From a phage: a stretch of 50,809 bases of DNA. Under the pieces are notes generated by a model that had not been told where the DNA came from, made no database searches, and was given only the letters and a program-made list of their open reading frames with translations. The stretch lies in the sequence record NC_136442.1, one strand, 5' to 3'. Both the position numbers and the translations under genes were made by a program. The first letter of the stretch is position 1; each line of letters begins with the position of its first letter. Shown in pieces: positions 3,314 through 39,559 of the stretch.

Positions 3314-3630
3314 AGCGGGCGGTTTACCTGTTTTACCTCAAGCCGCCAACTGACGCACAATTAGAGGCCGTCGGCCTATCCCGTTCAGACTACGAAGGGG
3401 AGGAGCCGCCGGAGGTAATTTTTGATGAATCAATGTTTCAATCTTGGGATCTGTTTTGCGCTATGCAGACGCAATGGAGATCGACTAGCGGCAGCGTGTA
3501 TGGGTTCGACTATAACGTTTTGCCTATGCTTTTTGACATTTACAAGATTGATGATCGGGAGATGGCGCTAAATGATTTGCGCATCATGGAACAAAAGGCG
3601 CTAGAAATGATTCATTCAAACAAAACATAA
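2996..3630 (+). CDS. tail assembly chaperone G-T fusion produced by -1 frameshift at 3304-3310
   Basis: -1 frame (KKLKRAVYLF...MFQSWDLF...) contiguous with listed ORF 3433..3630; conserved G/GT arrangement upstream of tape measure. Confidence 0.65.
3304..3310 (+). other. programmed -1 ribosomal frameshift site (slippery heptamer A AAA AAC)
   Basis: X XXY YYZ heptamer at the end of G; the -1 frame is open from 3304 to 3630 with no stop. Confidence 0.7.
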
Positions 3631-3650
3631 GCGCCGCGAGGCGCTTTTTT
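3629..3650 (+). terminator. intrinsic terminator / attenuator after GT
   Basis: AAGCGCC-GCGA-GGCGCTT hairpin plus TTTTTT. Confidence 0.65.
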
Positions 3651-3669
3651 AATATCTGGAGGTTTTAAA

Positions 3670-6351
3670 ATGGCTGAAAAATACGCTGGCCTAACGCTAG
3701 GCGTTGACGTGTCGCAGGTCAACAATGCTGTTAAATCATTGCAGCAATTCAAGAAGGCAAACGACGACGCAAAAAAAAGCGTTAATGAATTTGTTGATTC
3801 TGAGGTTGTGGCCCGACAGCAAGCAAAACAGCTTGCAGAAGAACTGGCGCGCCAGAAAGCAGAATTTAAGAAAATCCAGGAGTCAATTGATCCCACCGCA
3901 TCAAAGATGGATAAGCTGAGAAAGGCAGCGACACAGCTTGATGCGCTATGGAAAAAGGGCGTTGTTCCTGATCAGACTTTTTTTGAGCTTGGGGCAATTC
4001 TTGAGACGCAGCAAAACAAGCTGATCGCAACCAAAAAAGCGATGACAGAGGAAGGCCGCGCGGCGCTTGAGGAATCAAAGAACAAGGCGCGTGCAGCGGA
4101 AGAGGCTAAAAAATTCGTCCAGGCTTTGCGTGAACAGGAAGAAGCAGCAGGAAAAAGCAAGTCTGAATTGCTGGAAATGAAAGCGGCACAGCTTGGAGTT
4201 AGCCAGGAGGCAGCACCTTACATCGCAAGGATGAAAGAGCAGGAAAAGCAGATCCAGAAACTTGGTATTTCTACAGGCCAATACAAACAAGCAATGCAGC
4301 AATTGCCAATGCAGATCACAGACGTGGTGACTTCACTTGCTTCTGGTATGCCCGTTTGGTTGGTCGCAGTCCAGCAGGGTGGACAGATCAAGGATTCTTT
4401 TGGTGGTGCATCCAATGCTTTAAAAGCGTTGCTATCTTTCCTGAATCCGGTAAACGTGGCGTTTGGTTTGCTTTCCGGCACGCTGGCAATTGCTGCATAT
4501 AATGCCCACAAAGCACAGACAGAGCTTGAGGCAATTAAAAAAACCGTTCAGGAAACAACTGGCTTGAGTGGTGAGTTTGCCGAAAAGATTGCTATAGGAA
4601 TCCAGGAGCTTTCCGACAAGACAGGCGAAAGCGCCGAAGATCTGGCAAAGGCTTACATAACAACGAAAGACGGCGCGAGCGAGGCGATTAAAAAACTGGT
4701 TGACGTTGGAATGACTTATGATGACGCAAAAAAGAAAGTCAACGAGTACAAGGGCGCGTCTAGCTTTGTCAGCTTGAATAACGAAATTGCAAACCACAAA
4801 AACAAAGTCCTTGAGCTGGGCGAGTCGTGGTATGAAGTTTTGAAAGCTAAGCGTGATTACGCTTCCCCGTCCGGCGGCCTGTTAGGTAAAGAGCTTGGAT
4901 ATGTTAATCCTATGCTTAAGTTTGCACTTAACACTTATGAAGACATTGGAAAGGTCGTAAAAGATGCGAATAAGGACATGGCGGAGCGAGCGGAGCGAAT
5001 CGACAAAGAAAACCTGTCATTAAACAGAGTGAGAGCGGCGCAAGAGGCTTTAAACAAAGCCATTGAGGATCAGAAGGGCGTGGCGCGTTCGGCTGATGAA
5101 GAACTGAAAAAGCGCGCGGCTGAAAACGTGGAGTTCAGACGCAAAGAGCTTGAGGAGATCAAGAAGCAGGAGCAGAAAAAGAAAGAGGCTAAAGGGGGAA
5201 TAGTTCGCGGCCCTACTGAGCAGCTTGATAAAGAGTTGTACGTTTTAAAAGCTCAACTGGAAACTCTTAAAGAGCATCGCACTGTTAACGATGTTATTTC
5301 TCGCCAGCGTAAATCTTTATGGAGCATCGAAAAGCAGATCGAGATCCTGGAGAATGCGCAGAGCAAGCGTAAATTGACCGGAGCGGAACAGGCGCTACTA
5401 AGCGAGCAAAAAGCCGTTCTTGAAATGGCAAGACAAAAAGCGGAGCTAGGGGATCAGATTGTTTTGCAGGAGCGCAAAAACAAACTGGAGCAAGATAGTC
5501 TTAAGTTTATCCGTGAAACGGAGGCGGCTATTGATGCGATTGGCCTTAAGCAACTTGGCTACACTGAAAAGCAGATCGAGCGTGAGCTAGAGTTACGCAA
5601 GCTGCGCACCGACTACGAGGCGCAAGGCGGAAGCGTTAGCGACGAAGTTTTTCAGCAAATGGAGACGAAACTTAAGCTGTATTACCAGGCACAAGACGAG
5701 GCGCAAGGCAACTGGTTAGCCGGAGCAAAGAACGCATGGGAGCTATTCGCGGAAGATGCAAACAATGCCTATGGCAATGTTCAGCAGATTGCAAGCGAGG
5801 CGTTAAACGGCCTTACAAACCAATTAGCGAATTTTATCGCTACTGGCAAGGCAAACTTTAAAGACTTCTCGACGGCTATCATCAAAATGATTATTCAGAT
5901 GATCACGAAAATGGTTGTCTTTAATGCGTTATCTGGCCTGATGGGTGGTCAAACCTGGACGATGGGGAGCTTGCTTAAGAATATTGGCGGATTTGCTGGC
6001 GGTGGATACACTGGCGACGGCGGGAAGTATGAGCCAGCCGGAATTGTTCATAAGGGTGAATTTGTCATGACGAAGGAGGCAACGCAGCGTATCGGAGTAG
6101 GCAACTTGTACCGCATGATGCGAGGCTATGCTAACGGCGGCGTTGTTGGTGGTTCCGGCTATACTGGCGGTGGCACTGTCACTGGTGGAGCACCTCAATT
6201 TAACATCGGTGGGATTGATGTTAGCATCAATAACGGCAATGATCCGAAGGGTATCGAAACTGGTGTTAAGATGATCTTTACTGATATGATTAGACGTTCC
6301 TGTATGCAGGGCGGGGAGGTTTACGAATTTGTTATGAGCAAGCGAGGTTGA
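3670..6351 (+). CDS. tail tape measure protein
   Basis: 893 aa, long coiled-coil-rich ORF with glycine-rich C-terminus, directly after G/GT. Confidence 0.85.
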   Translation: MAEKYAGLTLGVDVSQVNNAVKSLQQFKKANDDAKKSVNEFVDSEVVARQQAKQLAEELARQKAEFKKIQESIDPTASKMDKLRKAATQLDALWKKGVVPDQTFFELGAILETQQNKLIATKKAMTEEGRAALEESKNKARAAEEAKKFVQALREQEEAAGKSKSELLEMKAAQLGVSQEAAPYIARMKEQEKQIQKLGISTGQYKQAMQQLPMQITDVVTSLASGMPVWLVAVQQGGQIKDSFGGASNALKALLSFLNPVNVAFGLLSGTLAIAAYNAHKAQTELEAIKKTVQETTGLSGEFAEKIAIGIQELSDKTGESAEDLAKAYITTKDGASEAIKKLVDVGMTYDDAKKKVNEYKGASSFVSLNNEIANHKNKVLELGESWYEVLKAKRDYASPSGGLLGKELGYVNPMLKFALNTYEDIGKVVKDANKDMAERAERIDKENLSLNRVRAAQEALNKAIEDQKGVARSADEELKKRAAENVEFRRKELEEIKKQEQKKKEAKGGIVRGPTEQLDKELYVLKAQLETLKEHRTVNDVISRQRKSLWSIEKQIEILENAQSKRKLTGAEQALLSEQKAVLEMARQKAELGDQIVLQERKNKLEQDSLKFIRETEAAIDAIGLKQLGYTEKQIERELELRKLRTDYEAQGGSVSDEVFQQMETKLKLYYQAQDEAQGNWLAGAKNAWELFAEDANNAYGNVQQIASEALNGLTNQLANFIATGKANFKDFSTAIIKMIIQMITKMVVFNALSGLMGGQTWTMGSLLKNIGGFAGGGYTGDGGKYEPAGIVHKGEFVMTKEATQRIGVGNLYRMMRGYANGGVVGGSGYTGGGTVTGGAPQFNIGGIDVSINNGNDPKGIETGVKMIFTDMIRRSCMQGGEVYEFVMSKRG

Positions 6352-6766: not shown

Positions 6767-7528
6767 ATGGCTAATAAAGAATCAGGTAGAGTTGAATTTG
6801 AGAACTGCCTACAAAGTTTGTACCCAGGAGAAATTATAACGCTTGTAGAGATTGACGGGACGAAGTTCGGGGCAAATATTTACCGATTTCACAATGAGAA
6901 CATTTCTTATACTGCCGAAGAATTAATGCAAGCGCAGCAAACCGGAATCTTGCCGCCGAAAGATATTATTTTTCAGGGTGAGGTTTACGGAGCGCGGCCT
7001 TTCGGTGTGAGCGGGATTAACTTCACAAGTAACGGCAGGGCAGATAAGCCTCAACTTATAGTGTCAAACCTTGACAGCAGGGTTAGCGCCATGATCAGAA
7101 ATTACAATGGCATGATGCAAGCAAAGGTGACTTTCTGGATTACGGCAAAGGAATTTATAGGAGAAGACGGAGCAATCAAAGATGGCGCTTACAGAAAATT
7201 GGTTTATTACATTGAGCGCCCAAGCCAGTATAATAGAGAGGTGGCGAAATTTGATCTGACGTCGCCTTACGATATGGATGGACTGATGATCCCGCCGCGC
7301 ATCACTCAAAGCGTTTGCTATTGGGCGCAAAGGGGGTGGTACAGGAGCGGAAAGGGTTGCTCTTATAACGGATCGGCAATGTTCGATAAAGACAATAAGC
7401 CAGTAACAGATCCATCGCAAGACTATTGCGCAGGAACTGTAACGGCTTGCAAATTGAGATTCGGTCAGCAAAACGAGTTGGATTTCGGCGGTTGCGCGGT
7501 GGCGTCACTGCTACGGAGGAATCAATAA
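6767..7528 (+). CDS. minor tail protein L-like
   Basis: 253 aa, strong RBS AAGGAGG, position after M-like gene. Confidence 0.65.
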   Translation: MANKESGRVEFENCLQSLYPGEIITLVEIDGTKFGANIYRFHNENISYTAEELMQAQQTGILPPKDIIFQGEVYGARPFGVSGINFTSNGRADKPQLIVSNLDSRVSAMIRNYNGMMQAKVTFWITAKEFIGEDGAIKDGAYRKLVYYIERPSQYNREVAKFDLTSPYDMDGLMIPPRITQSVCYWAQRGWYRSGKGCSYNGSAMFDKDNKPVTDPSQDYCAGTVTACKLRFGQQNELDFGGCAVASLLRRNQ

Positions 7529-8259
7529 TGATTAGTGCAAAAATTAAACTTGAAATAATGCAGCACGTTAAAGAGGAATACCCTAAAGAGGCTTGCGGCG
7601 TCATAACTCAAAAGTCACGGGTACAGAAATATCACCGCATAACCAACGTGCATGACGATCCAGAAAATCATTTTGAAATGGACGCCGTAGAATACGCTGA
7701 ATCGCTCGACAAAGGCGAATTAATCGCGGTGGTGCATTCCCATTGCGGGGATGGTGCTAGTACGATACCGAGCGCGCACGACTCATGTATGTGCGATGAA
7801 ATGGGTGTGTCGTGGATTATAGTTTCATGGCCCGAAGGTGATATGAGAATTGTCGAGCCGCAGGAAAGGCCGCTTATCGGTCGCCCGTGGTCGCTGGGGT
7901 CGTTCGATTGCTGGGGTCTTATCATGGCGTGGCATAAACAGCACGGAGTAGTATTGAATGACTTCCGAAAACCTTACGAGTGGTGGAAGTCAGAATATGG
8001 TGAAAATCTTTACCAGGATAATTATTTGAAAGAGGGATTTGTTGAAACTAACGAGCCTCCAAAACCTGGTGATATGGTGATTATGCAACTATCATCGCCA
8101 GTCTGGAATCATGCGGGGATTTATTTGGGTAACAACCAGCTATTACATCATGCGTTTGGAAAGCTATCTCGCATCGACTTGTATTCTGGATGGTATCAGG
8201 AGCACACTGTAAAAATTTGCCGACATAAGGATCTGAAATATGACATTGAAAGTAATTAA
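7528..8259 (+). CDS. tail assembly protein K-like (JAB/MPN plus NlpC/P60-like domains)
   Basis: HSHCGDG motif (JAMM-like) and Cys/His C-terminal domain; start chosen at MISAK with GGAGGA RBS and TAATG overlap. Confidence 0.7.
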   Translation: MISAKIKLEIMQHVKEEYPKEACGVITQKSRVQKYHRITNVHDDPENHFEMDAVEYAESLDKGELIAVVHSHCGDGASTIPSAHDSCMCDEMGVSWIIVSWPEGDMRIVEPQERPLIGRPWSLGSFDCWGLIMAWHKQHGVVLNDFRKPYEWWKSEYGENLYQDNYLKEGFVETNEPPKPGDMVIMQLSSPVWNHAGIYLGNNQLLHHAFGKLSRIDLYSGWYQEHTVKICRHKDLKYDIESN

Positions 8260-20395: not shown

Positions 20396-22393
20396 ATGAT
20401 TCCAAATATCGAAAAACAAATATCAGCGTTAGGCGAGGCAGTAATAAAAAGCATCCAAGAGCGATTCACTGTTGGCAATATAGTGCCTTATCCTTATCAG
20501 TGCGTTGCGTATGCCGAGATCGCAAAGCGCATGAAAAACTATGAGCATCCTTTCTTTGTTAAGGCTTCTGTGTCGGCTGGCAAAACATTGATGTTTGCGA
20601 TGGTTGCGGCGCAATGCCGCAAAATGGGATTGAAAATGATGGTCCTTGCTCGCCAGGCTGAAATTGTTGATCAGGATTCGGAAGAGATCAGCAATCTTGG
20701 CGTGCCAAACTCAATCTATTGCGCCGGACTGAAAACAAAAAGCGCATACTTTCCGATCGTAGTCGGTTCTGAGGGCACTGTAGTAAACGGATTGTTTAAG
20801 TCGTTAGGTGATTATGTTCCGCACGTTATCGGTATTGATGAATGTCACCAGGTGGATTGGGAGGATCTCGCTGATGCGATAGAAAATAATGAATCTTACC
20901 AGCAGATGACCACTAAGAAGGATTTGCCTGTACTGATTGGAGAAGAACAGCAATTTGATTCCAATGGCGATCCAATGTTCGGAACAGGGCGCACACAGTA
21001 CACCGTAATAATCATGGAAATGATGCGCAGGTGTCGCGAGGCATACGGGCACGAATTGCGAATATTCGGTATGACTGGATCTGAGTTTCGCGGCGTGGTT
21101 CCAATACTGGTTGAAGATAAGAACAAAAAGGGATTCTGGCGTGAGCAGGTGACTAACATAGACACAAACTACTTAATCAAATTTGGTTCGGTAGTGCCAA
21201 CAAATTTCGGCGACGTAGGCGACCTGGGGTATGACCTTTCAGAGTTCGAAGCCAGTAGCGAGGATGGCGTTTCAGACTTTGACGCTAAAACATTGCGCAA
21301 GATGGAAGAAAAAATCCATCAAGACGCAACAATGACACAGAAAATCATGGCTAAAGTCCATGAGATATGCAAAGACAGGAACGGAGTTTTAGTTACATGC
21401 GCAGGGGAAAGGCACTGCAAGGAGGCCGCCGCCGCACTGCCTCCAGGCGTTGAATACAGGATCATAACTGGCAAGACTGGAGACAATCAGCGTAAAGAGT
21501 GGCTGAGGGAGGCATACGATGGAAAAGTAAAATACATCTTCCAGGTACAGGCGCTTACCACTGGCGTTAACGTTCCGTTTTGGGATACTTCGGTAATACT
21601 GAGAAAGATAGGATCTCTAACATTGCTTATCCAGCTTTTGGGGCGCGGTATGCGACTGCTTAAGCAATGGCACATTGAGCAGGGATTCAAGAAAAAAGAC
21701 CATCTTGTATTGGATTTTGCCGGTACTATGGATGAGTTAGGGGATTTGTATTTCGATCCAATCCTTGAGCAAGCGCAATTCCAAAAGAGATTTACAAACG
21801 GGAAAGAGCCTAAGACTTGTCCGATATGTGGAACGCTAAACAGCTTTTACGCTCGCCGATGTATGCACGTAGACGATAACGGGAAGAGATGCGAGCATTT
21901 TTGGACTTACAGAATTTGCGAGGACCAGGTAGATCCGAGAACGAAAAAGATAATCAAGCGCGGTTGCGGAACAAAAAACGACGTAGTGGCGAGAGTATGC
22001 CGTTGTTGCGATATTTCTCTTGTCGATCCTAACGAGAAGTTAAGCGGCAAGCACTACACCAAAAACGATTGGTGCAACGTTAAATCTTTCCGCGTTGATA
22101 TGACGAAAAACCAGAAAGGAATTGTTTTTTGCTATGAGCTTGAGGCCAACGGCGACACGTTCAAGGCATACGAAAGATTTTTCCCTGAGTCAGAAAGCAA
22201 CATTTGCCGGACGATATGGAGAAAAATAGCATTGCAGCACATACCGGATCGCAAGATTGCTGGTATGGTGGCGAGCTATAGAAATGCGCGTAAAATAATG
22301 TCATACGCTCATCACATCATGCCTCCTGTACGCGTAACGCATCGCAAAAACGGCAAAGGTGAGGATAACATTGCAAAACGGGAGTTTGTTTAA
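20396..22393 (+). CDS. superfamily 2 DNA helicase (DECH box) with C-terminal Cys-rich zinc-finger region
   Basis: Walker A-like SAGKT, motif II GIDECHQ, motif VI QLLGRGMR, CxxC pairs in C-terminus. Confidence 0.75.
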   Translation: MIPNIEKQISALGEAVIKSIQERFTVGNIVPYPYQCVAYAEIAKRMKNYEHPFFVKASVSAGKTLMFAMVAAQCRKMGLKMMVLARQAEIVDQDSEEISNLGVPNSIYCAGLKTKSAYFPIVVGSEGTVVNGLFKSLGDYVPHVIGIDECHQVDWEDLADAIENNESYQQMTTKKDLPVLIGEEQQFDSNGDPMFGTGRTQYTVIIMEMMRRCREAYGHELRIFGMTGSEFRGVVPILVEDKNKKGFWREQVTNIDTNYLIKFGSVVPTNFGDVGDLGYDLSEFEASSEDGVSDFDAKTLRKMEEKIHQDATMTQKIMAKVHEICKDRNGVLVTCAGERHCKEAAAALPPGVEYRIITGKTGDNQRKEWLREAYDGKVKYIFQVQALTTGVNVPFWDTSVILRKIGSLTLLIQLLGRGMRLLKQWHIEQGFKKKDHLVLDFAGTMDELGDLYFDPILEQAQFQKRFTNGKEPKTCPICGTLNSFYARRCMHVDDNGKRCEHFWTYRICEDQVDPRTKKIIKRGCGTKNDVVARVCRCCDISLVDPNEKLSGKHYTKNDWCNVKSFRVDMTKNQKGIVFCYELEANGDTFKAYERFFPESESNICRTIWRKIALQHIPDRKIAGMVASYRNARKIMSYAHHIMPPVRVTHRKNGKGEDNIAKREFV

Positions 22394-22812
22394 TGGCTAT
22401 AACTGATAAAGGCGATTATCTTGAGTTTTACGAAAGGGATCCAACCGACACGAGAAGGGAAGTTAATCACCAGATAGATAGTTTTCAGTGGTTGACTTAT
22501 GCTCATCCTTATTTGCTGGCGTGGCATACGGTAAACGAGAATGAGAAGTCTAAAGCAACGGCGATGATTGATCAGCAGTCCGGCTTGGTTAAGGGAGTAA
22601 GCGATTTCATCATCCTGATTGGTTTAAACGGAAAATACCCCTTTGCAGCGATTGAGATCAAACGAGTGAATAAATCAGGCAAGGGGAAAGCATCACCAGT
22701 CAGCGATGAACAAAAGGCTTTTTTGCGTCGCGTTCGCAGCTTAGGAGGATTCGCTGCGGTAGCCTACGGATTCAATCAGTTTAAGTTGGCTATTGAATAC
22801 ATGCTTAAATAG
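22393..22812 (+). CDS. VRR-NUC domain nuclease
   Basis: GVSDF...IEIK PD-(D/E)XK-type motif in a roughly 140-aa protein after the helicase. Confidence 0.55.
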   Translation: MAITDKGDYLEFYERDPTDTRREVNHQIDSFQWLTYAHPYLLAWHTVNENEKSKATAMIDQQSGLVKGVSDFIILIGLNGKYPFAAIEIKRVNKSGKGKASPVSDEQKAFLRRVRSLGGFAAVAYGFNQFKLAIEYMLK

Positions 22813-22852: not shown

Positions 22853-22892
22853 TCAATAACACGAGATGGCTTTTAATAGCGGAGAAATGAAA

Positions 22893-23618
22893 ATGGCTAA
22901 AGATATTTTAGATAAAGACACCCATGACGCATTCGTTAGCTTTGAGCAGTTGGAGAGAGAAACGTTTATAGGGAATGCCCTTGCAACTGGAGGCCATTAC
23001 CAGGCAGTAAAGCAAAATCAATATTATAAGGTAAGCGGAAACCGATACGCTGGAAGCACTACGCCGGACGTTGTGCGAGATATGTGGAGCACGCCTCAAG
23101 AGATCGTGGAGTGGATGGAATCAGAATTTGGTGAATACGATCTCGACGCGGCAGCAAGCCAGGAAAACGCAGTTTGCGAGAAGTTCTATAGCAAGGAAAC
23201 AAACTGCTTAAAGCGTTGGTGGGGTAGCAACAAGCACGTATGGCTTAACCCGCCGTACAGCAACCCAACTCCATTTATCAAGAAAGCAATTGAGCAAATG
23301 GAGCACAACAACCAAATTGATGTTTTGTTGCCAGCAGAAAACTCTACAGCATGGTTTTATGAGGCGCAGAAAAACGCGGCTGAAATCATCTGGATCACTG
23401 GTGAGGTTTACGAAGAGGGTGGAGTAGAATACTCCCGCACCGGAAGAATTGCCTTTGTGTCTGGATTGACTGGTGAGCCTGTGCAGGGCAACAACAAGGG
23501 AAGCGTGATTTTTGTCATGCGCAAACTTAAAGAAGGCGAGGAGCAGAAAACGCGATACGTTAAGATCAGCGATATTTGCCCTTCTGTAACCGAACGTCGC
23601 GCACGCAAACGGAGCTAA
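22893..23618 (+). CDS. dam: DNA N6-adenine methyltransferase (phage Dam-like)
   Basis: DLDAAAS and NPPYS motifs; start chosen 8 nt after GGAG. Confidence 0.7.
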   Translation: MAKDILDKDTHDAFVSFEQLERETFIGNALATGGHYQAVKQNQYYKVSGNRYAGSTTPDVVRDMWSTPQEIVEWMESEFGEYDLDAAASQENAVCEKFYSKETNCLKRWWGSNKHVWLNPPYSNPTPFIKKAIEQMEHNNQIDVLLPAENSTAWFYEAQKNAAEIIWITGEVYEEGGVEYSRTGRIAFVSGLTGEPVQGNNKGSVIFVMRKLKEGEEQKTRYVKISDICPSVTERRARKRS

Positions 23619-23622
23619 CACG

Positions 23623-23880
23623 ATGAAAAAAGAGAGAAGCGTTTATTTAAATGAAACTGGCGAATGGTTGTTATTTCGCGCTATGGTGTGCGATGCACTT
23701 GATAAAAATCCTAACGTGAAAAAGATGATTGATTGCGATCCGTGGGAATTTTCAAGCGCATTAGATATGAGCTTTGAGGAGACAAAAAAACTCCCGCTTG
23801 AAAAATGGCACGAACAAATCAGAAATGACATGCAAGAGTTTGTCGATTCGTGGAATTTTCAGCACGGAATGATCCACTAA
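23623..23880 (+). CDS. hypothetical protein (85 aa)
   Basis: ORF with GGAG RBS; stop overlaps next motif. Confidence 0.55.
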   Translation: MKKERSVYLNETGEWLLFRAMVCDALDKNPNVKKMIDCDPWEFSSALDMSFEETKKLPLEKWHEQIRNDMQEFVDSWNFQHGMIH

Positions 23881-23923
23881 TAGCACTTTTTGTTAAAACG
23901 CCCGACCTAGTGTCGGGCATAAT
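23880..23923 (+). promoter_or_regulatory. motif-type promoter cassette (motif, hairpin GCCCGACCTAGTGTCGGGC, CATAAT)
   Basis: Read directly. Confidence 0.6.
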
Positions 23924-23955
23924 TATTTCAACGAAGCAAACATGAGGAAATAAAA

Positions 23956-24135
23956 ATGGTGGTATTCGATAAACGCGCTTTTAATCTTGCTCAAGAAGTA
24001 GCAAAAGGTTCAGTGGATGGCGGTTCAAAGGAAGGATTCCAGTTTGATTGGGAGATCGCAATGTTTTTACTGAAAGTTGCATACGGTCACGCACCAATTG
24101 AACAAGCGGAGGCATATTATAAGCATGAAGGTTGA
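23956..24135 (+). CDS. hypothetical protein (59 aa)
   Basis: ATG preceded by GAGGAAATAAAA; below the ORF-track size cutoff. Confidence 0.45.
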   Translation: MVVFDKRAFNLAQEVAKGSVDGGSKEGFQFDWEIAMFLLKVAYGHAPIEQAEAYYKHEG

Positions 24136-24367
24136 GCAAGGAAGAGATGCGGTATGGAATCACGCTAAAGAATGCGGTATTGCCGACGATATAAAGAAGA
24201 TCGCGCAATACTTTGATATTGCAGATGTGAGCATAATTAGCGGCGACAAGATGACTTTCCTCAAGGAAAGGCCGCGAAAAATGGTAAGAGTTCCAGCAGT
24301 TCCAACAAAAATTGATTTCAAAGAGGCAATGGCTAAAATCCGAGAGCCTCGCAAATATTATAAATGA
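24125..24367 (+). CDS. hypothetical protein (80 aa)
   Basis: ORF overlapping previous stop; start uncertain. Confidence 0.45.
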   Translation: MKVEQGRDAVWNHAKECGIADDIKKIAQYFDIADVSIISGDKMTFLKERPRKMVRVPAVPTKIDFKEAMAKIREPRKYYK

Positions 24368-24461
24368 GGATAGTTATCATGTGGCGCTTGTTTGTTCTAC
24401 CGTTACCAGTTATCATCGCTGTTACAGTTATGTACCATATAGTGATGAGATAGGTAGCAGA

Positions 24462-25577
24462 ATGAAAAATGTAAAAATTACAGATGAGAAATTCAAGATC
24501 GAACGGGCGGCAGGTAAGACATATAAACAGATCGCTCAAGAGTACGGAATGAATGTGAGAAGCGTCGAGCGTCGCGCGGCGCGTCTTGCAAAGCAAGGAC
24601 AGCTATCGACCATCGGAGCGCCTGGTTTTGGTGTTCATGGTGAGTCAGTAATGACTGACAAAGAAGGAAATATAATCCTCAAGTGGACCAAAACCAGCAA
24701 GGATAAAGAGCAATTAGAGGCATTGATGCGCGCAGCTATGGAGGCGTTTAGCGAGGAAGTGCCGCGATTAGATCCAGTTCCATTGCAGGAGCGTAATTAT
24801 AATGAAACGCTTTCATTGTATCCGATCTTTGACATGCACTTAGGCGCTATGGCCCATAAGCACGAATGCGGCGAAAATTGGGATACTGCGACGGCAGAGC
24901 GCGTTATGAATAACTTTATCGACTATGCTTTGATGTGCGCGCCGGACAGCGAAAAGGCTGTTATCCTGATTGGTGGCGATATGCTTCATAGCGATGGCCT
25001 GGAGGCTGTGACACCTGCAAGCGGTCACGTACTTGATCAAGATAGCCGATATGCAAAATTGGTTTACGTTGCAATCCGTGCAATGCGTCGCGCAATTAAT
25101 AAAATGCTGTTAAAGCATAAACATGTTGAGGTTCAGATCGTAGAGGGGAATCACGACCAATCAGGAATGATTTGGCTACGCGCAGCAATGGCGGCAGCAT
25201 ATGAGAACGAGCCGCGCGTTTACGTTGATGTTTCTCCTCGCGTTGTTCACCACACGCAATACGGAAAAACTTTCCTTGCGTACCATCACGGGCACACAGT
25301 GCGTAAACCGGAGACTTTGCTAATGATGTGCGCGTCAGATTGGCGGGAGGACTTCGGAAACTCAAAAACGATGTATGCGCACGTAGGGCACTGGCATCAC
25401 CAGACCGTGACGGAAACGTCGCTTGGGATCGTGGAGGTGCATAGCACCCTGGCGGCAAAAGACGCATACGCCGCGCGCGGTGGCTGGAGATCTCGACGCC
25501 GTGCAGCGGTTATCATTTACGACAAAGAGCATGGAGAAGTTGGGCGATTTGTTCACTATCCAGAAATGATGAATTGA
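24462..25577 (+). CDS. calcineurin-like metallophosphoesterase with N-terminal HTH-like segment
   Basis: FDMHLG, GGDMLHSD, EGNHDQ, YHHGH metallophosphatase motifs; N-terminal KTYKQIAQEYGMNVRSVERRAARL. Confidence 0.6.
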   Translation: MKNVKITDEKFKIERAAGKTYKQIAQEYGMNVRSVERRAARLAKQGQLSTIGAPGFGVHGESVMTDKEGNIILKWTKTSKDKEQLEALMRAAMEAFSEEVPRLDPVPLQERNYNETLSLYPIFDMHLGAMAHKHECGENWDTATAERVMNNFIDYALMCAPDSEKAVILIGGDMLHSDGLEAVTPASGHVLDQDSRYAKLVYVAIRAMRRAINKMLLKHKHVEVQIVEGNHDQSGMIWLRAAMAAAYENEPRVYVDVSPRVVHHTQYGKTFLAYHHGHTVRKPETLLMMCASDWREDFGNSKTMYAHVGHWHHQTVTETSLGIVEVHSTLAAKDAYAARGGWRSRRRAAVIIYDKEHGEVGRFVHYPEMMN

Positions 25578-25626
25578 TGAATTTTTATTTAAATCAATGA
25601 CAAATTAAATCAAAAACTTGCAAAGT

Positions 25627-25652
25627 GGCGGCGTTTGTCGCCTCTTTTTTTT
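25627..25652 (+). terminator. intrinsic terminator upstream of lysis cassette
   Basis: GGCGGCG-TTTG-TCGCC hairpin followed by T8. Confidence 0.65.
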
Positions 25653-25722
25653 GTTTAATTTTTTACCATGTGCGTTTATCATGCGGTCAATATATTGACT
25701 TTAATTAATATGGAGAATAAAA

Positions 25723-25938
25723 ATGAAAGATTTTATTAACGCAGCTACCGCCGGATCTGGCGGTTCATCTATCGCAAGCGCCGCTACAGGGCAGTTAACC
25801 ATTGCTATTGCCAGTTTTATTTTAATGGCTGCATTCGGTGCGTGGGGCGCTTACCTTCGCTGGCGTGATAGTAAAAAATTCCACGAGGCGATCGAAAAAG
25901 GTGATATTCAAAAAGCTATTGAGATCAGGGGCAAGTAA
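25723..25938 (+). CDS. holin (small, possibly pinholin-type)
   Basis: 71 aa, hydrophobic helix [21 protein letters not shown], charged C-terminus, directly upstream of endolysin. Confidence 0.7.
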
Positions 25939-26429
25939 TGAGCATAAAGAACAGGGTAGCGGCTGCGGCCTTTGGCGTTGCGGTTGCCTTGACTTCTCCA
26001 CTTCTTGAAGAGATCGAAGGGGTAAGATACAAGCCATACAAAGATATTGCGGGGGTATGGACGGTTTGCGCAGGAATCACCGGACCCGATGTTATCCTGG
26101 GGAAAACGTACACTAAAAAAGAGTGTGATGCTTTGTTGGCTAAGCATATCCAGGTTGCCAAAAAGGAAGTTGACAAGCAAGTTAAGGTTGACATTCCTGA
26201 TAGTATGCGTGCAGCAATGTACTCATTCACTTACAATGCAGGTGTGGGAGCTTTCAGAAATTCAACAATGCTGAAACTCATCAACCAGGGGAAATTAAAA
26301 GATGCTTGCGATCAGCTTTATCGTTGGACGTATTACCATAACCCCAAAACAGGAAGGCGCGAGAAGTCTAAAGGCTTACTTAACAGGCGCAATGTCGAAT
26401 ACAAATATTGCACAATGGATCTGAAATGA
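25938..26429 (+). CDS. endolysin, lysozyme-like with N-terminal signal-anchor-release (SAR) domain
   Basis: Catalytic-type E-x8-D-x5-T ([16 protein letters not shown]) after a weakly hydrophobic N-terminus [18 protein letters not shown]. Confidence 0.7.
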
Positions 26430-26821
26430 TGAAGAAATTTTTACTTACACCAATCGCAATGGCGGTGATCTTGTCTGGATGTTCAAGCGTTACGCCACTG
26501 ACCGGATTAATCGGCAGTAAGCCGGAAATCACAGCACAGGCTGGCGCGGAGAACGTGAAGCAGACAGTTGGCATTACAGCAAAGCAGGACGCCAGCACAA
26601 AACAGAAAACCACAATAAAGGAATCTGCGGTTGACAAGGTTGACACGTCCAGCAAGAAGGATTTCACAACATCAACCATTCAGGCCAATACCATCAAGGC
26701 AGACAAAATTCAGGTCGTGCAGGGTAATAACGGCAGATGGTACGATCCAATAATCATATGCGTGGTTGTGTTAATTGTGCTGATTTGTCTTTACTGGAGA
26801 GAAAAGAAAAAGGAGGCTTAA
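26426..26821 (+). CDS. unimolecular spanin (T1 gp11-like): lipoprotein signal plus C-terminal transmembrane helix
   Basis: Lipobox ILSGC at the N-terminus and C-terminal [15 protein letters not shown] helix in one polypeptide. Confidence 0.7.
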
Positions 26822-37115: not shown

Positions 37116-37323
37116 GCGCGTCAAGCACAGGTTTACTGATAACCACGGCGACGCGATTGATGTATACAAGTTCGGAGATCGCGTGTTTATTGATGGCACG
37201 TTTGAAGGTGGGCGTAGGCCGGATTTTAGGTCGATACTTACCGTTGACCAAGTGCGCAAGCTGGCAGATAAGTTAAATGATCTGGCAGATGAAATAGAAT
37301 ACAAGCAAATCCATTTTAATTGA
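37102..37323 (+). CDS. hypothetical protein (73 aa)
   Basis: Overlaps previous gene end; GAGGAAG upstream. Confidence 0.5.
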   Translation: MKTNKRVKHRFTDNHGDAIDVYKFGDRVFIDGTFEGGRRPDFRSILTVDQVRKLADKLNDLADEIEYKQIHFN

Positions 37324-37334
37324 TAGGTTTGATA

Positions 37335-38045
37335 ATGAAAAAATACACTTTCGAACTGTGGGGCAAGAAGTACGAATTTACGACAAGCAAGCCGATTGTT
37401 ATCGTTGACCTAGACGGCACACTATCGGACGGATCGCATCGTTTGCATTTGCTGCCAACTGAAAACTTGCACCTTACGGAATCGTGGCGCGAGTTTAACA
37501 GGGCCGCCGCCGGAGATTCACCTATTAAAAGCACTATCGCGGTTATTAACGGTTTATGGGTGTCGGGATTTGCCATCGTCATCTTGACCGGACGCAGCGA
37601 CGAGGTTCGCTATGAAACCTGCAAATGGTTGAATGAGAACGGCGTGAAGTTTGACGAAATCATCATGCGCCGCCATGAGGACAACCGAAAGGATACGGTT
37701 ATTAAAGAAGAAGCCTTGCGCGCTATTGGCCTGGACAACATTGTTTGCGCCTTTGACGATTCGCCGAACGTGGTTAAGCACTTCCGCAGCTTGGGGATCA
37801 CAACCTATCAGGTCACGGAATACGACAAGCCACACGCTCACATACAATCTCACGGCGTGGAATCAATCAAGATAACGAAGCGCGCCCGATTCGTTGGCAG
37901 CAAAGATAGCCTTGTCAATGCCAGCTTTACCAGAGGAATAGCCTATGACGTTGTTTCTTATCATGACAAGAGTTTTATAGTTCATGATGATTCTGGATGC
38001 GCCTGGTCATTCAATCATAGTGACGGCGATTTTGTTAATGCGTAA
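37335..38045 (+). CDS. HAD-superfamily phosphatase (nucleotidase or polynucleotide 3-phosphatase-like)
   Basis: Motif I VIVDLDGTLSDG (DxDGT) near the N-terminus; ATG at 37335 chosen over TTG at 37320. Confidence 0.55.
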   Translation: MKKYTFELWGKKYEFTTSKPIVIVDLDGTLSDGSHRLHLLPTENLHLTESWREFNRAAAGDSPIKSTIAVINGLWVSGFAIVILTGRSDEVRYETCKWLNENGVKFDEIIMRRHEDNRKDTVIKEEALRAIGLDNIVCAFDDSPNVVKHFRSLGITTYQVTEYDKPHAHIQSHGVESIKITKRARFVGSKDSLVNASFTRGIAYDVVSYHDKSFIVHDDSGCAWSFNHSDGDFVNA

Positions 38046-38968: not shown

Positions 38969-39559
38969 ATGAAGCGAGACATTATTATCCTTAATGGGCC
39001 ACCTGGTTGTGGAAAGGACACTATTGCAGCTTACCTAACGGGCCATCGTTACCCAGCGGTTAAGGCGTCATTCAAACAGCCGATGTTCGATATTGCGTTT
39101 TCCATGCTGGGCGTGTACCGATACGATGAATTTATGGACCTGTACAACGACCGAGAACAAAAAGAAAAGCCTCAAGTTATCTTAGGCGGCAAGTCACCTC
39201 GACAATTCATGATCTGGATTAGCGAGGATGTAATGAAGCCAGTTTTTGGGGATCACTATTTCGGGCGTCGAATGGTTGAAGAGATTCACGAGATGTACCG
39301 AGATTTGGCGGTTGTGATCAGTGATGGCGGATTCCCCGAAGAAATCAAGCCGCTGGTTAAGGCGGGGCATGAGGTGCATATTTGCCGATTGCATCGCGAC
39401 GGCTTCACGTTTGCTGGCGATTCGAGAGACTACATTGACCTGAGCGGTTATCACTATCGAATCCATCACTATGATTTCCACTTGCAGGACGGTAAGCCGG
39501 AACTGGCTGTAAACGAGATCGTCAATGCTGTCAAATGGAAGCACACACAGATTAAATAG
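38969..39559 (+). CDS. P-loop nucleotide kinase (dNMP kinase-like)
   Basis: Walker A NGPPGCGKDT near the N-terminus; GGGGAGAATAATC RBS. Confidence 0.6.
   Translation: MKRDIIILNGPPGCGKDTIAAYLTGHRYPAVKASFKQPMFDIAFSMLGVYRYDEFMDLYNDREQKEKPQVILGGKSPRQFMIWISEDVMKPVFGDHYFGRRMVEEIHEMYRDLAVVISDGGFPEEIKPLVKAGHEVHICRLHRDGFTFAGDSRDYIDLSGYHYRIHHYDFHLQDGKPELAVNEIVNAVKWKHTQIK

What the first reader, a model, noticed from the sequence alone, without database searches (positions are those of the whole stretch)
24462..25577. Metallophosphoesterase fused to an N-terminal HTH-like segment, just upstream of the lysis cassette
The complete calcineurin-like motif set (DMH, GDMLHSD, GNHD, HHGH) follows an N-terminal segment resembling a sigma region 4 / helix-turn-helix (KTYKQIAQEYGMNVRSVERRAARLAKQG). 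The fold is shared by Ser/Thr phosphatases, Mre11/SbcD nucleases and cyclic-nucleotide phosphodiesterases. A phage-encoded phosphodiesterase could degrade cyclic-nucleotide defence signals, and a DNA-binding phosphatase or nuclease would be unusual either way.
Basis: partly seen in the sequence, partly recalled or inferred. Interest (0 to 1): 0.45.

Follow-up and report, generated by a model that had tools for sequence, protein, structure and literature searches.

The report
T1-type phage HTH-metallophosphoesterase (gp16 family)
This is the ordinary, near-universal T1-like phage gene (T1 ORF16, PHROG 704) for a DNA-binding helix-turn-helix domain fused to an Mre11/DP1-like metallophosphoesterase, most likely a DNA nuclease, whose function has never been tested directly.

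Summary
Window 24462-25577 (+) is a 371-aa ORF carrying all five calcineurin-type motifs (DMH, GDMLHSD, GNHD, HHGH, GHWHH). An N-terminal tri-helical HTH is predicted with high confidence.

It is not a new fusion. The window is a Drexlerviridae (T1-like) coliphage, and this gene is the counterpart of T1 ORF16. It matches PHROG 704 ('DNA repair exonuclease') at E=3e-148. Relatives occur in 2,041 of 50,697 phage records and in about 4,600 50%-identity clusters, nearly all with the same N-terminal-extension-plus-phosphoesterase layout. About half of those sampled show a detectable HTH.

The nearest studied analogues are the mycobacteriophage Bxb1 gp47 and A10ZJ24 Gp48 phosphoesterases, which are nucleases. 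They are tied to phage DNA replication and to host-DNA breakdown.

My best reading, at about 0.5 confidence, is a DNA-tethered Mn/Mg nuclease acting in phage DNA metabolism or host-chromosome degradation. The cyclic-nucleotide anti-defence idea is not excluded but has no support. A Ser/Thr phosphatase is unlikely.

The gene ends at its own terminator, so it is not part of the lysis cassette. Interest is low to moderate.

The parts
24462..25577 (+). CDS, 371 aa: HTH-metallophosphoesterase, counterpart of T1 ORF16, PHROG 704
   Evidence: Translation. PHROG 704 at E=3e-148 over residues 5-370. 99% DNA identity to genes annotated 'DNA repair exonuclease' or 'putative phosphoesterase' in vB_Eco_mar001J1, NorthRox and tonnikala. 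T1 ORF16 has the same position.
24483..24593 (+). N-terminal tri-helical helix-turn-helix (aa 8-44), sigma-70 region 4 / LuxR-GerE-like
   Evidence: AF2 helices at 8-16, 21-27 and 32-44 with pLDDT 87-93. Pfam Sigma70_r4_2 E=0.0017 here and 1.5e-9 in homologues, GerE 2.4e-8. The family profile hits GerE in the PDB at E=0.02.
24627..24755 (+). Linker module (aa 56-98): beta-hairpin plus long helix, with near-invariant W75
   Evidence: AF2 secondary structure E56-65, E71-80, H82-98. W75 is conserved in at least 90% of 46 relatives. Function unknown.
24801..25556 (+). Metallophosphoesterase catalytic domain (aa 114-365)
24831..24839 (+). Motif I, D124-M-H126
   Evidence: D124 and H126 invariant.
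24975..24995 (+). Motif II, G172-D-M-L-H176-S-D178 (GDxxH type, as I recall for Mre11)
   Evidence: D173 and D178 invariant, H176 at least 90% conserved. A GDxxH match is present in essentially all 149 family representatives (148 matches counted).
25008..25058 (+). Family-specific conserved loop VTPASGHVLDQDSRYAK (aa 183-199), between motif II and the long helix
   Evidence: T184 invariant; L191, D192 and R196 at least 90% conserved in 31-55% identical relatives. Disordered in the shallow-alignment model and ordered in the deep one. A role in substrate binding is inferred.
25146..25157 (+). Motif III, G229-N-H-D232
   Evidence: N230 and H231 invariant. GNHD occurs in 129 of 149 representatives.
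25284..25295 (+). Motif IV, H275-H276-G-H278
   Evidence: H276 invariant; G277 and H278 at least 90% conserved.
25386..25400 (+). Motif V, G309-H310-W-H312-H313
   Evidence: G309 and H312 invariant, H310 at least 90% conserved.
25627..25652 (+). Intrinsic-terminator-like hairpin (GGCGGCGTTTGTCGCC) plus T-run, ending the transcription unit before the holin
   Evidence: Terminator scan. The intergenic fold has z -2.7 with an A/U-flanked hairpin. T1 has an annotated rho-independent terminator at the same place after ORF16.

Best explanation
The gene encodes a two-domain enzyme. The C-terminal domain is a binuclear-metal (Mn2+/Mg2+-type) phosphodiesterase whose fold and active site are closest to the DNA nucleases of the calcineurin-like superfamily (PolD DP1, Mre11, SbcD). 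It is held on DNA by an N-terminal sigma-region-4/LuxR-type helix-turn-helix.

It most likely cuts or trims DNA during infection. One possibility is breakdown of the host chromosome, feeding the phage's own dNMP kinase. The other is processing of ends and intermediates of the recombination-dependent replication that T1-like phages rely on.

Shown here: the ORF, the motifs, the fold, the HTH, the family size, the conserved architecture, the separate transcription unit, and near-universal presence in T1-like phages with at least one natural loss. Inferred: that the substrate is DNA, that the HTH binds DNA, and the biological role.
For: All metal-ligand motifs are invariant across relatives of 31-55% identity.

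Motif II is GDxxH throughout the family, which from memory is the Mre11 form. The only PDB phosphoesterases the family profile touches at all are nucleases, though not significantly: Nuclease MPE at E=1 and SbcD at E=1.5.

The N-terminal HTH recurs across the family, even where the N-terminus has diverged.

The genomic context is DNA metabolism. Here the order is helicase, VRR-NUC, Dam, three small ORFs, then this gene. In lambdoid prophages it sits between the O-like gene and DnaB. In Webervirus and Yersinia phage vB_YenM_646 it lies directly upstream of polynucleotide kinase/phosphatase and dNMP kinase, and this window also encodes both of those.

T1 robustly degrades the host chromosome (bioRxiv 10.64898/2026.03.01.708804), yet the genome of a close relative lists no SbcC/Rad50 and no polymerase.

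The gene tracks the T1-type helicase almost one to one across phage records, for example 468 against 469 Klebsiella phages.
Against: No member of this family has been assayed, and I found no paper on it.

Sequence links to any characterised phosphoesterase are weak. Single-sequence hhalign probabilities are 20% or less, and the 73% link to the gp47 family had no balanced comparator profiles.

Mre11/SbcD need Rad50/SbcC and DP1 needs DP2, and no such partner is encoded here.

In several other phage groups the gene lies with lysis, packaging or structural genes. One virion proteome detected a T1-like phosphoesterase that I did not verify as a family member (PMC8004638). A purely replicative role would not predict either observation.

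phiJLA23 lacks the catalytic domain, so the enzyme is not essential for growth.
Confidence: 0.5

Rival explanations
1. It is a nucleic-acid end-healing phosphoesterase, for example a 2',3'-cyclic phosphodiesterase or 3'-phosphatase. It would work with the phage polynucleotide kinase/phosphatase to repair RNA or DNA ends damaged by host nucleases, in the manner of bacterial Pnkp.
For: In two distinct lineages the gene is immediately followed by a polynucleotide kinase/3'-phosphatase gene: Webervirus PKP126 and Yersinia phage vB_YenM_646. The window phage and T1 also encode a PNK. From memory, the phosphoesterase domain of Clostridium Pnkp belongs to the same superfamily.
Confidence: 0.12
2. It is mainly a DNA-binding regulator or architectural factor, for example for the switch to late, lysis or packaging genes, or a moonlighting cofactor like the Bxb1 RDF. 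The phosphoesterase domain would be auxiliary.
For: The HTH is of the sigma-region-4/LuxR type. In Dhillonvirus, Acinetobacter LAPP1, Yersinia vB_YenM_646, a Vibrio phage and Rhodobacter RcWhiteOak the gene sits at the border of lysis, terminase or head genes. Here it sits just before the lysis promoter region. phiJLA23 retains only the HTH part. Bxb1 gp47 shows that a phage phosphoesterase can moonlight as a recombination directionality factor (PMC1470463, PMC11795197).
Against: Every catalytic residue is invariant over about 4,600 clusters, so the selected function is the enzyme. The catalytic domain is better conserved than the HTH, even at the DNA level. No repeated operator-like sequence was found near the gene.
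Confidence: 0.1
3. It is an anti-defence phosphodiesterase that destroys cyclic nucleotide or oligonucleotide immune signals (CBASS, Pycsar, Thoeris, type III CRISPR).
Against: Known signal-degrading phage enzymes have other folds (Acb1 2H, Apyc1 MBL; PMC9117128), and my searches turned up no metallophosphoesterase among them. The gene is near-universal in T1-like phages and spread across many virulent siphovirus groups, rather than patchy like typical counter-defence genes. A DNA-binding HTH has no obvious use for a soluble-nucleotide enzyme. PADLOC gives no hit. A lysate screen of 32 E. coli phages for cGAMP binding or degradation named only SPO1-type phages as new hits (PMC11722364). I did not verify that any screened phage carries this gene, so that point is weak.
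Confidence: 0.08
4. It is a Ser/Thr (or Tyr) protein phosphatase like lambda NinI.
For: It has the same superfamily motifs in the broad sense. Lambda encodes such an enzyme near its late regulator.
Confidence: 0.03

Closest known systems
PHROG 704 / T1 ORF16 family ('DNA repair exonuclease', 'putative phosphoesterase')
   Same: Full-length profile match at E=3e-148. Up to 99.7% protein identity to annotated genes in close relatives. Same position as T1 ORF16 with the same downstream terminator. Same HTH plus phosphoesterase layout.
   Different: Nothing of substance. The family name is a homology-based guess, not a tested function.
Mycobacteriophage stand-alone phosphoesterases: Bxb1 gp47 (RDF), L5 gp54, A10ZJ24 Gp48 (PHROG 221)
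   Different: A different PHROG with no cross-hit. Bxb1 gp47 is 255 aa with no HTH. Its motif I is D-x-Q rather than D-x-H, and its motif II is GDVLD rather than GDxxH. Its host range and genome context differ (next to primase and polymerase).
Mre11 / SbcD nucleases
   Different: No Rad50/SbcC ATPase in the genome of the close relative. E. coli SbcD belongs to PHROG 100, which this protein does not hit. hhalign probability to SbcD is 3.7%. An N-terminal HTH is present instead of SbcD's C-terminal extension beyond the nuclease core; which Mre11/SbcD capping or Rad50-binding elements are missing was not examined.
Archaeal PolD small subunit DP1 (3'-5' proofreading exonuclease)
   Different: 13% identity. 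No DP2-like polymerase, and no annotated polymerase at all, in T1-like genomes.
Lambda NinI Ser/Thr phosphatase and class III cNMP phosphodiesterases (CpdA/Rv0805)
   Same: Same superfamily and metal-binding core.

Membership tests
Calcineurin-like metallophosphoesterase superfamily (Pfam PF00149 clan) | Five ordered motifs: DxH, GDxx[DH], GNH[DE], H, GHxH | tested here: met
   aa 124-126, 172-176, 229-232, 276-278 and 309-312. The ligand residues are invariant in 46 distant relatives.
Calcineurin-like metallophosphoesterase superfamily (Pfam PF00149 clan) | The superfamily's core fold, judged by structural matches to solved members | tested here: met
Calcineurin-like metallophosphoesterase superfamily (Pfam PF00149 clan) | Score above Pfam's gathering threshold | tested here: not met
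   16.8 bits against 21.5 for this protein. Homologue P0157 passes at 25.1 bits. The family is a divergent branch.
PHROG 704 | Full-length profile match | tested here: met
   E=3.1e-148, residues 5-370 on profile positions 3-389 of 390.
Sigma-70 region 4 / LuxR-GerE type HTH | Helix-turn-helix sequence signature | tested here: inconclusive
   This protein is sub-threshold (Sigma70_r4_2 18.4 against 25.7 bits). Among homologues, P0200 passes (Sigma70_r4 25.3 against 24.1 bits) and others give E=1.5e-9 for Sigma70_r4_2 and 2.4e-8 for GerE. The exact HTH class is not fixed, because several HTH families hit.
Sigma-70 region 4 / LuxR-GerE type HTH | Three-helix bundle with a recognition helix | tested here: met
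   Helices at 8-16, 21-27 and 32-44 with pLDDT 87-93.
Sigma-70 region 4 / LuxR-GerE type HTH | Binds DNA (or the RNA polymerase beta-flap) | not testable with these tools
   Needs EMSA or footprinting.
Mre11/SbcD nuclease | Nuclease-type phosphoesterase domain | tested here: met
Mre11/SbcD nuclease | Partner Rad50/SbcC ATPase encoded alongside | tested here: not met
   None is annotated among the 83 genes of the closely related phage tonnikala (about 99% identical in this gene), nor in T1.
Mre11/SbcD nuclease | Sequence-level family membership | tested here: not met
   No hit to PHROG 100, the family of E. coli SbcD. hhalign 3.7%. PDB profile E=1.5.
PPP-type Ser/Thr phosphatase (lambda NinI) | PPP-type motifs as they appear in lambda NinI: GDLHG, GDLVDRG, GNHE | tested here: not met
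Known phage signal-nucleotide nucleases (Acb1, Apyc1) | 2H-phosphoesterase or metallo-beta-lactamase fold | tested here: not met
   The fold is calcineurin-like. The folds of Acb1 and Apyc1 are as described in PMC9117128.
Known phage signal-nucleotide nucleases (Acb1, Apyc1) | Hydrolysis of cyclic di- or oligonucleotides | not testable with these tools
   Needs an enzyme assay.
Bxb1 gp47 family (PHROG 221) | Profile match to PHROG 221 | tested here: not met
   No PHROG 221 hit at E<=0.01. Only a remote profile-profile link, 73%.

The most novel reading that the evidence does not exclude
The HTH-phosphoesterase is the enzyme behind T1's rapid destruction of the host chromosome. On this reading it is a DNA-tethered nuclease that spares phage DNA, perhaps through the phage's own Dam-type methylation encoded four genes upstream. 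It would both feed dNMP salvage and silence host defence genes, as reported for mycobacteriophage Gp48. Because the family is present in more than 2,000 sequenced phages, this would define a very widespread host-takeover or counter-defence nuclease.
Probability: 0.2. Interest if true: 0.55.

Novelty: already known. Interest (0 to 1): 0.27.

Why it matters
The gene is among the most widespread phage genes that have a clear enzymatic signature but no tested function. It occurs in about 4% of sequenced phage genomes and is close to universal in the therapeutically used T1-like, Webervirus and related groups.

Knowing its role would improve annotation of thousands of genomes. The candidates are host-DNA destruction, replication or recombination processing, and counter-defence. 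The answer would also bear on transduction risk, because phages that fail to degrade host DNA would be expected to transduce more.

As a discovery from this window it adds little. The family, its fold class and its HTH are already recorded in public annotation.

Tried and rejected
1. Sequence search of the PDB with the protein found nothing relevant. With a family profile, only HTH proteins were hit, plus non-significant nuclease hits.

2. NCBIfam gave no family, only a weak PdeM fragment at E=0.003. PADLOC gave none.

4. The afdb50 fold library was unavailable. BFVD returned only uncharacterised viral relatives.

5. I tried to build balanced comparator profiles for hhalign. NinI relatives in IMG/VR were all at least 95% identical, and SbcD had none. 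The 73% link to the gp47 family therefore cannot be ranked against other subfamilies. A local hmmsearch against a four-protein panel gave trivial scores.

6. The search for related loci with the diverse alignment failed for lack of a conserved stretch. Context was instead taken from 14 annotated phage or prophage lineages.

7. Literature searches found no experimental paper on this family. Savinov 2012 is not held. The transposon-mutagenesis preprint does not mention T1-like phages or this gene.

8. I looked for operator-like repeats around the gene and found none. Rfam found nothing at 23500-26500.

9. I considered that the gene belongs to the lysis cassette. I rejected this because of the terminator between them, and because T1 has extra genes (an HNH endonuclease and ORF14) in between.

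10. I recalled from memory that classical T1 'gene 2.5' mutants fail to degrade host DNA. I could not link that gene to this ORF with the tools, so it remains a lead only.

Full report
**What is there.** The window is a T1-like coliphage of the family Drexlerviridae. The gene's DNA is 99.2% identical to vB_Eco_mar001J1 and 98.7% identical to the Warwickvirus phage tonnikala. The flagged interval 24462-25577 (+) is an intact ORF of 371 codons. A longer ORF can be read from the GTG at 24381, and that is the start annotated in RefSeq for tonnikala gp08. In an alignment of 29 homologues, however, nearly all begin at the methionine corresponding to 24462.

**Family.** The protein matches PHROG 704 ('DNA repair exonuclease') end to end at E=3e-148. 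It corresponds in position and sequence to ORF16 of phage T1 itself.
- tblastn finds relatives in 2,041 of 50,697 phage records: Drexlerviridae, Dhillonvirus, a Casjensviridae phage (Rhodobacter RcWhiteOak), Xiamenvirus, lambdoid mEp phages, and Salmonella, Vibrio, Flavobacterium and Campylobacter phages.
- An exhaustive HMMER scan finds 4,615 50%-identity clusters at E<=1e-3, nearly all 360-420 aa long.
- Public names include 'DNA repair exonuclease', 'putative phosphoesterase', 'DNA polymerase II small subunit' and 'winged helix-turn-helix domain-containing protein'.
- The T1-type helicase and this gene occur in almost the same sets of genomes: 721 against 649 records at 60% identity or more, and 469 against 468 Klebsiella phages.

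The gene is therefore close to a core gene of T1-like phages. It is not strictly essential, because phiJLA23 retains only a 110-aa N-terminal remnant.

**Anatomy.** A first AlphaFold model from close homologues was mediocre (pLDDT 75.8). A second model from 46 diverse relatives reached pLDDT 91.3. It shows three parts:
- a three-helix HTH at residues 8-44;
- a beta-hairpin plus long helix at residues 56-98;
- a phosphoesterase core at residues 114-365.

The HTH is also supported by sequence. Pfam hits here are sub-threshold. One homologue exceeds its gathering score (P0200), and others give strong E-values (Sigma70_r4_2 1.5e-9, GerE 2.4e-8). Even among homologues with divergent N-termini, 4 of 10 show HTH hits.

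The metal ligands D124, H126, D173, N230, H231, H276 and H312 are invariant in relatives of 31-55% identity. A GDxxH match for motif II is present in essentially all 149 representatives, and motif III is GNHD in 129. Two family-specific loops are also strongly conserved: VTPxSGHxLDxDxRxxK after motif II, and D-A-Y...GG[WY]RS.R near the C-terminus. They are candidates for substrate contacts, which is inference. At the DNA level, conservation among distant T1-like phages begins only at about nt 348, where the catalytic domain starts. The N-terminal third evolves faster.

Single-sequence hhalign gives Bxb1 gp47 20%, CpdA 4.7%, SbcD 3.7% and lambda NinI 0.6%. Against a 15-sequence gp47-family profile the value rises to 73% at E=3e-5, covering motifs II-V. 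I could not build equally diverse comparator profiles, so this shows a remote relationship rather than specific sisterhood.

The PPP signatures seen in lambda NinI (GDLHG, GDLVDRG, GNHE) are absent here. NCBIfam and PADLOC give nothing useful. Overall the nuclease branch is favoured, a Ser/Thr phosphatase is unlikely, and a small-molecule phosphodiesterase is not excluded.

**Context.** Upstream on the same strand lie a helicase (20396-22393), a VRR-NUC protein (22393-22812), a Dam-type methyltransferase (22866-23618) and three small ORFs. Downstream of the stop codon there is a GC-rich hairpin followed by a T-run (25627-25652). It is flanked by an A-run, like a bidirectional terminator. After it come a promoter-like site and then the holin, endolysin and spanin genes. 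The spanin ORF has a lipobox-like N-terminus and a hydrophobic C-terminus, which from memory is the T1 gp11 unimolecular-spanin pattern. T1 has an annotated terminator at the equivalent place, with an HNH gene and ORF14 between ORF16 and the holin. The gene is thus a neighbour of the lysis cassette, not part of it.

Elsewhere the neighbourhood varies:
- Lambdoid E. coli prophages place the gene between the O-like replication gene and DnaB.
- Webervirus and Yersinia phage vB_YenM_646 place it directly before a polynucleotide kinase/phosphatase and a dNMP kinase.
- Dhillonvirus and Acinetobacter LAPP1 place it just before the terminase genes.
- RcWhiteOak places it after the lysis genes.
- A Salmonella phage (SE126_1H4) and a Vibrio phage place it before an HNH endonuclease.

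The window phage itself encodes a PNK (37320-38045) and a dNMP kinase (38969-39559) elsewhere in the genome. The annotated genome of the close relative lists no DNA polymerase, ligase or SbcC/Rad50.

**What is known experimentally.** I found no study of this family. The nearest studied proteins are stand-alone mycobacteriophage phosphoesterases.
- A10ZJ24 Gp48 is a phosphodiesterase that degrades linear, plasmid and genomic DNA. It is toxic and lets the phage overcome host defences (PMC12287305).
- T1 robustly degrades the host chromosome (bioRxiv 10.64898/2026.03.01.708804).
- A virion proteome of the T1-like Pantoea phage AAS23 detected a protein its authors call a phosphoesterase (gp38), encoded next to PNK and dNMP kinase genes (PMC8004638). 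I did not confirm that gp38 belongs to this family, and the significance of the detection is unclear.

**Most likely mechanism.** I judge it to be a DNA-tethered binuclear-metal nuclease. The HTH holds the enzyme on duplex DNA, and the Mre11/DP1-like site hydrolyses phosphodiester bonds. The biological role would be either host-chromosome breakdown feeding dNMP salvage, or trimming of ends and intermediates in the RecE/Erf-dependent replication of these polymerase-less phages. I put about 0.5 on 'nuclease acting on DNA'. The choice between the two roles is open. Rivals, in descending order, are an end-healing phosphoesterase working with PNK (0.12), a primarily regulatory or architectural HTH protein (0.10), an anti-defence cyclic-nucleotide phosphodiesterase (0.08) and a protein phosphatase (0.03).

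**Novelty and score.** The gene, its family, its fold class and its HTH are all already recorded in public annotation, and the sequence is up to 99.7% identical at the protein level to deposited phage proteins. The fusion is the rule for the family, not an oddity. What remains open is the real substrate and role of a very widespread phage enzyme. That is a fair experimental question, but the window adds nothing new to it. Interest 0.27.

Noticed in passing
window 24381-24461: RefSeq annotates the close homologue (tonnikala gp08, 398 aa) from a GTG equivalent to window 24381. Nearly all homologues start at the ATG at 24462, so the database start is probably 27 codons too long.
   Followed up: partly
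window 24379-24453 (+, other frame): A 24-codon, strongly hydrophobic ORF (MWRLFVLPLPVIIAVTVMYHIVMR) lies in the spacer just upstream of the gene. It may be chance.
   Followed up: no
window 37320-38045 and 38969-39559: The phage encodes a polynucleotide kinase/phosphatase (PHROG 415) and a dNMP kinase (PHROG 139). The dNMP kinase counterpart in tonnikala appears to be gp41, a 196-aa ORF labelled only 'hypothetical'. In Webervirus and Yersinia phage vB_YenM_646 these two genes sit immediately downstream of the phosphoesterase gene.
   Followed up: partly
L157 (phiJLA23, NC_047740) 3489-3821: This Rogunavirus keeps only a 110-aa N-terminal (HTH plus linker) remnant of the gene. The catalytic domain is replaced by three small ORFs, so the enzyme is dispensable for a viable isolate, provided the assembly is correct.
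   Followed up: partly
phage records MG065649, MG065636; protein P0050: Unannotated 'Campylobacter phage' A143 and A16a records of about 50 kb, and 'Streptococcus phage MBBL140', carry copies 77-85% identical to this E. coli phage gene. The host labels are probably wrong, or the records are contaminants.
   Followed up: no
window 25602-25661: The terminator hairpin after the gene is flanked by an A-run and a T-run that can pair, in the manner of a bidirectional terminator. The intergenic fold has z -2.7.
   Followed up: partly
window 26408-26821: The spanin ORF has a lipobox (LSGC) near its N-terminus and a C-terminal hydrophobic stretch. From memory this is the unimolecular-spanin pattern of T1 gp11. 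It overlaps the end of the endolysin gene.
   Followed up: no
L020 (Bxb1, NC_002656) 6876-7788: RefSeq product names in this Bxb1 region look shifted or odd. 'RDF' is placed on gp46, whereas the literature assigns it to gp47, and neighbouring genes are called 'sigma-K factor' and 'phosphofructokinase'.
   Followed up: no
(blastn across T1-like phages): DNA similarity to distant T1-like phages begins at about nt 348 of the gene, the start of the catalytic domain. The HTH/linker third diverges much faster, which would fit a changing binding partner or target.
   Followed up: no
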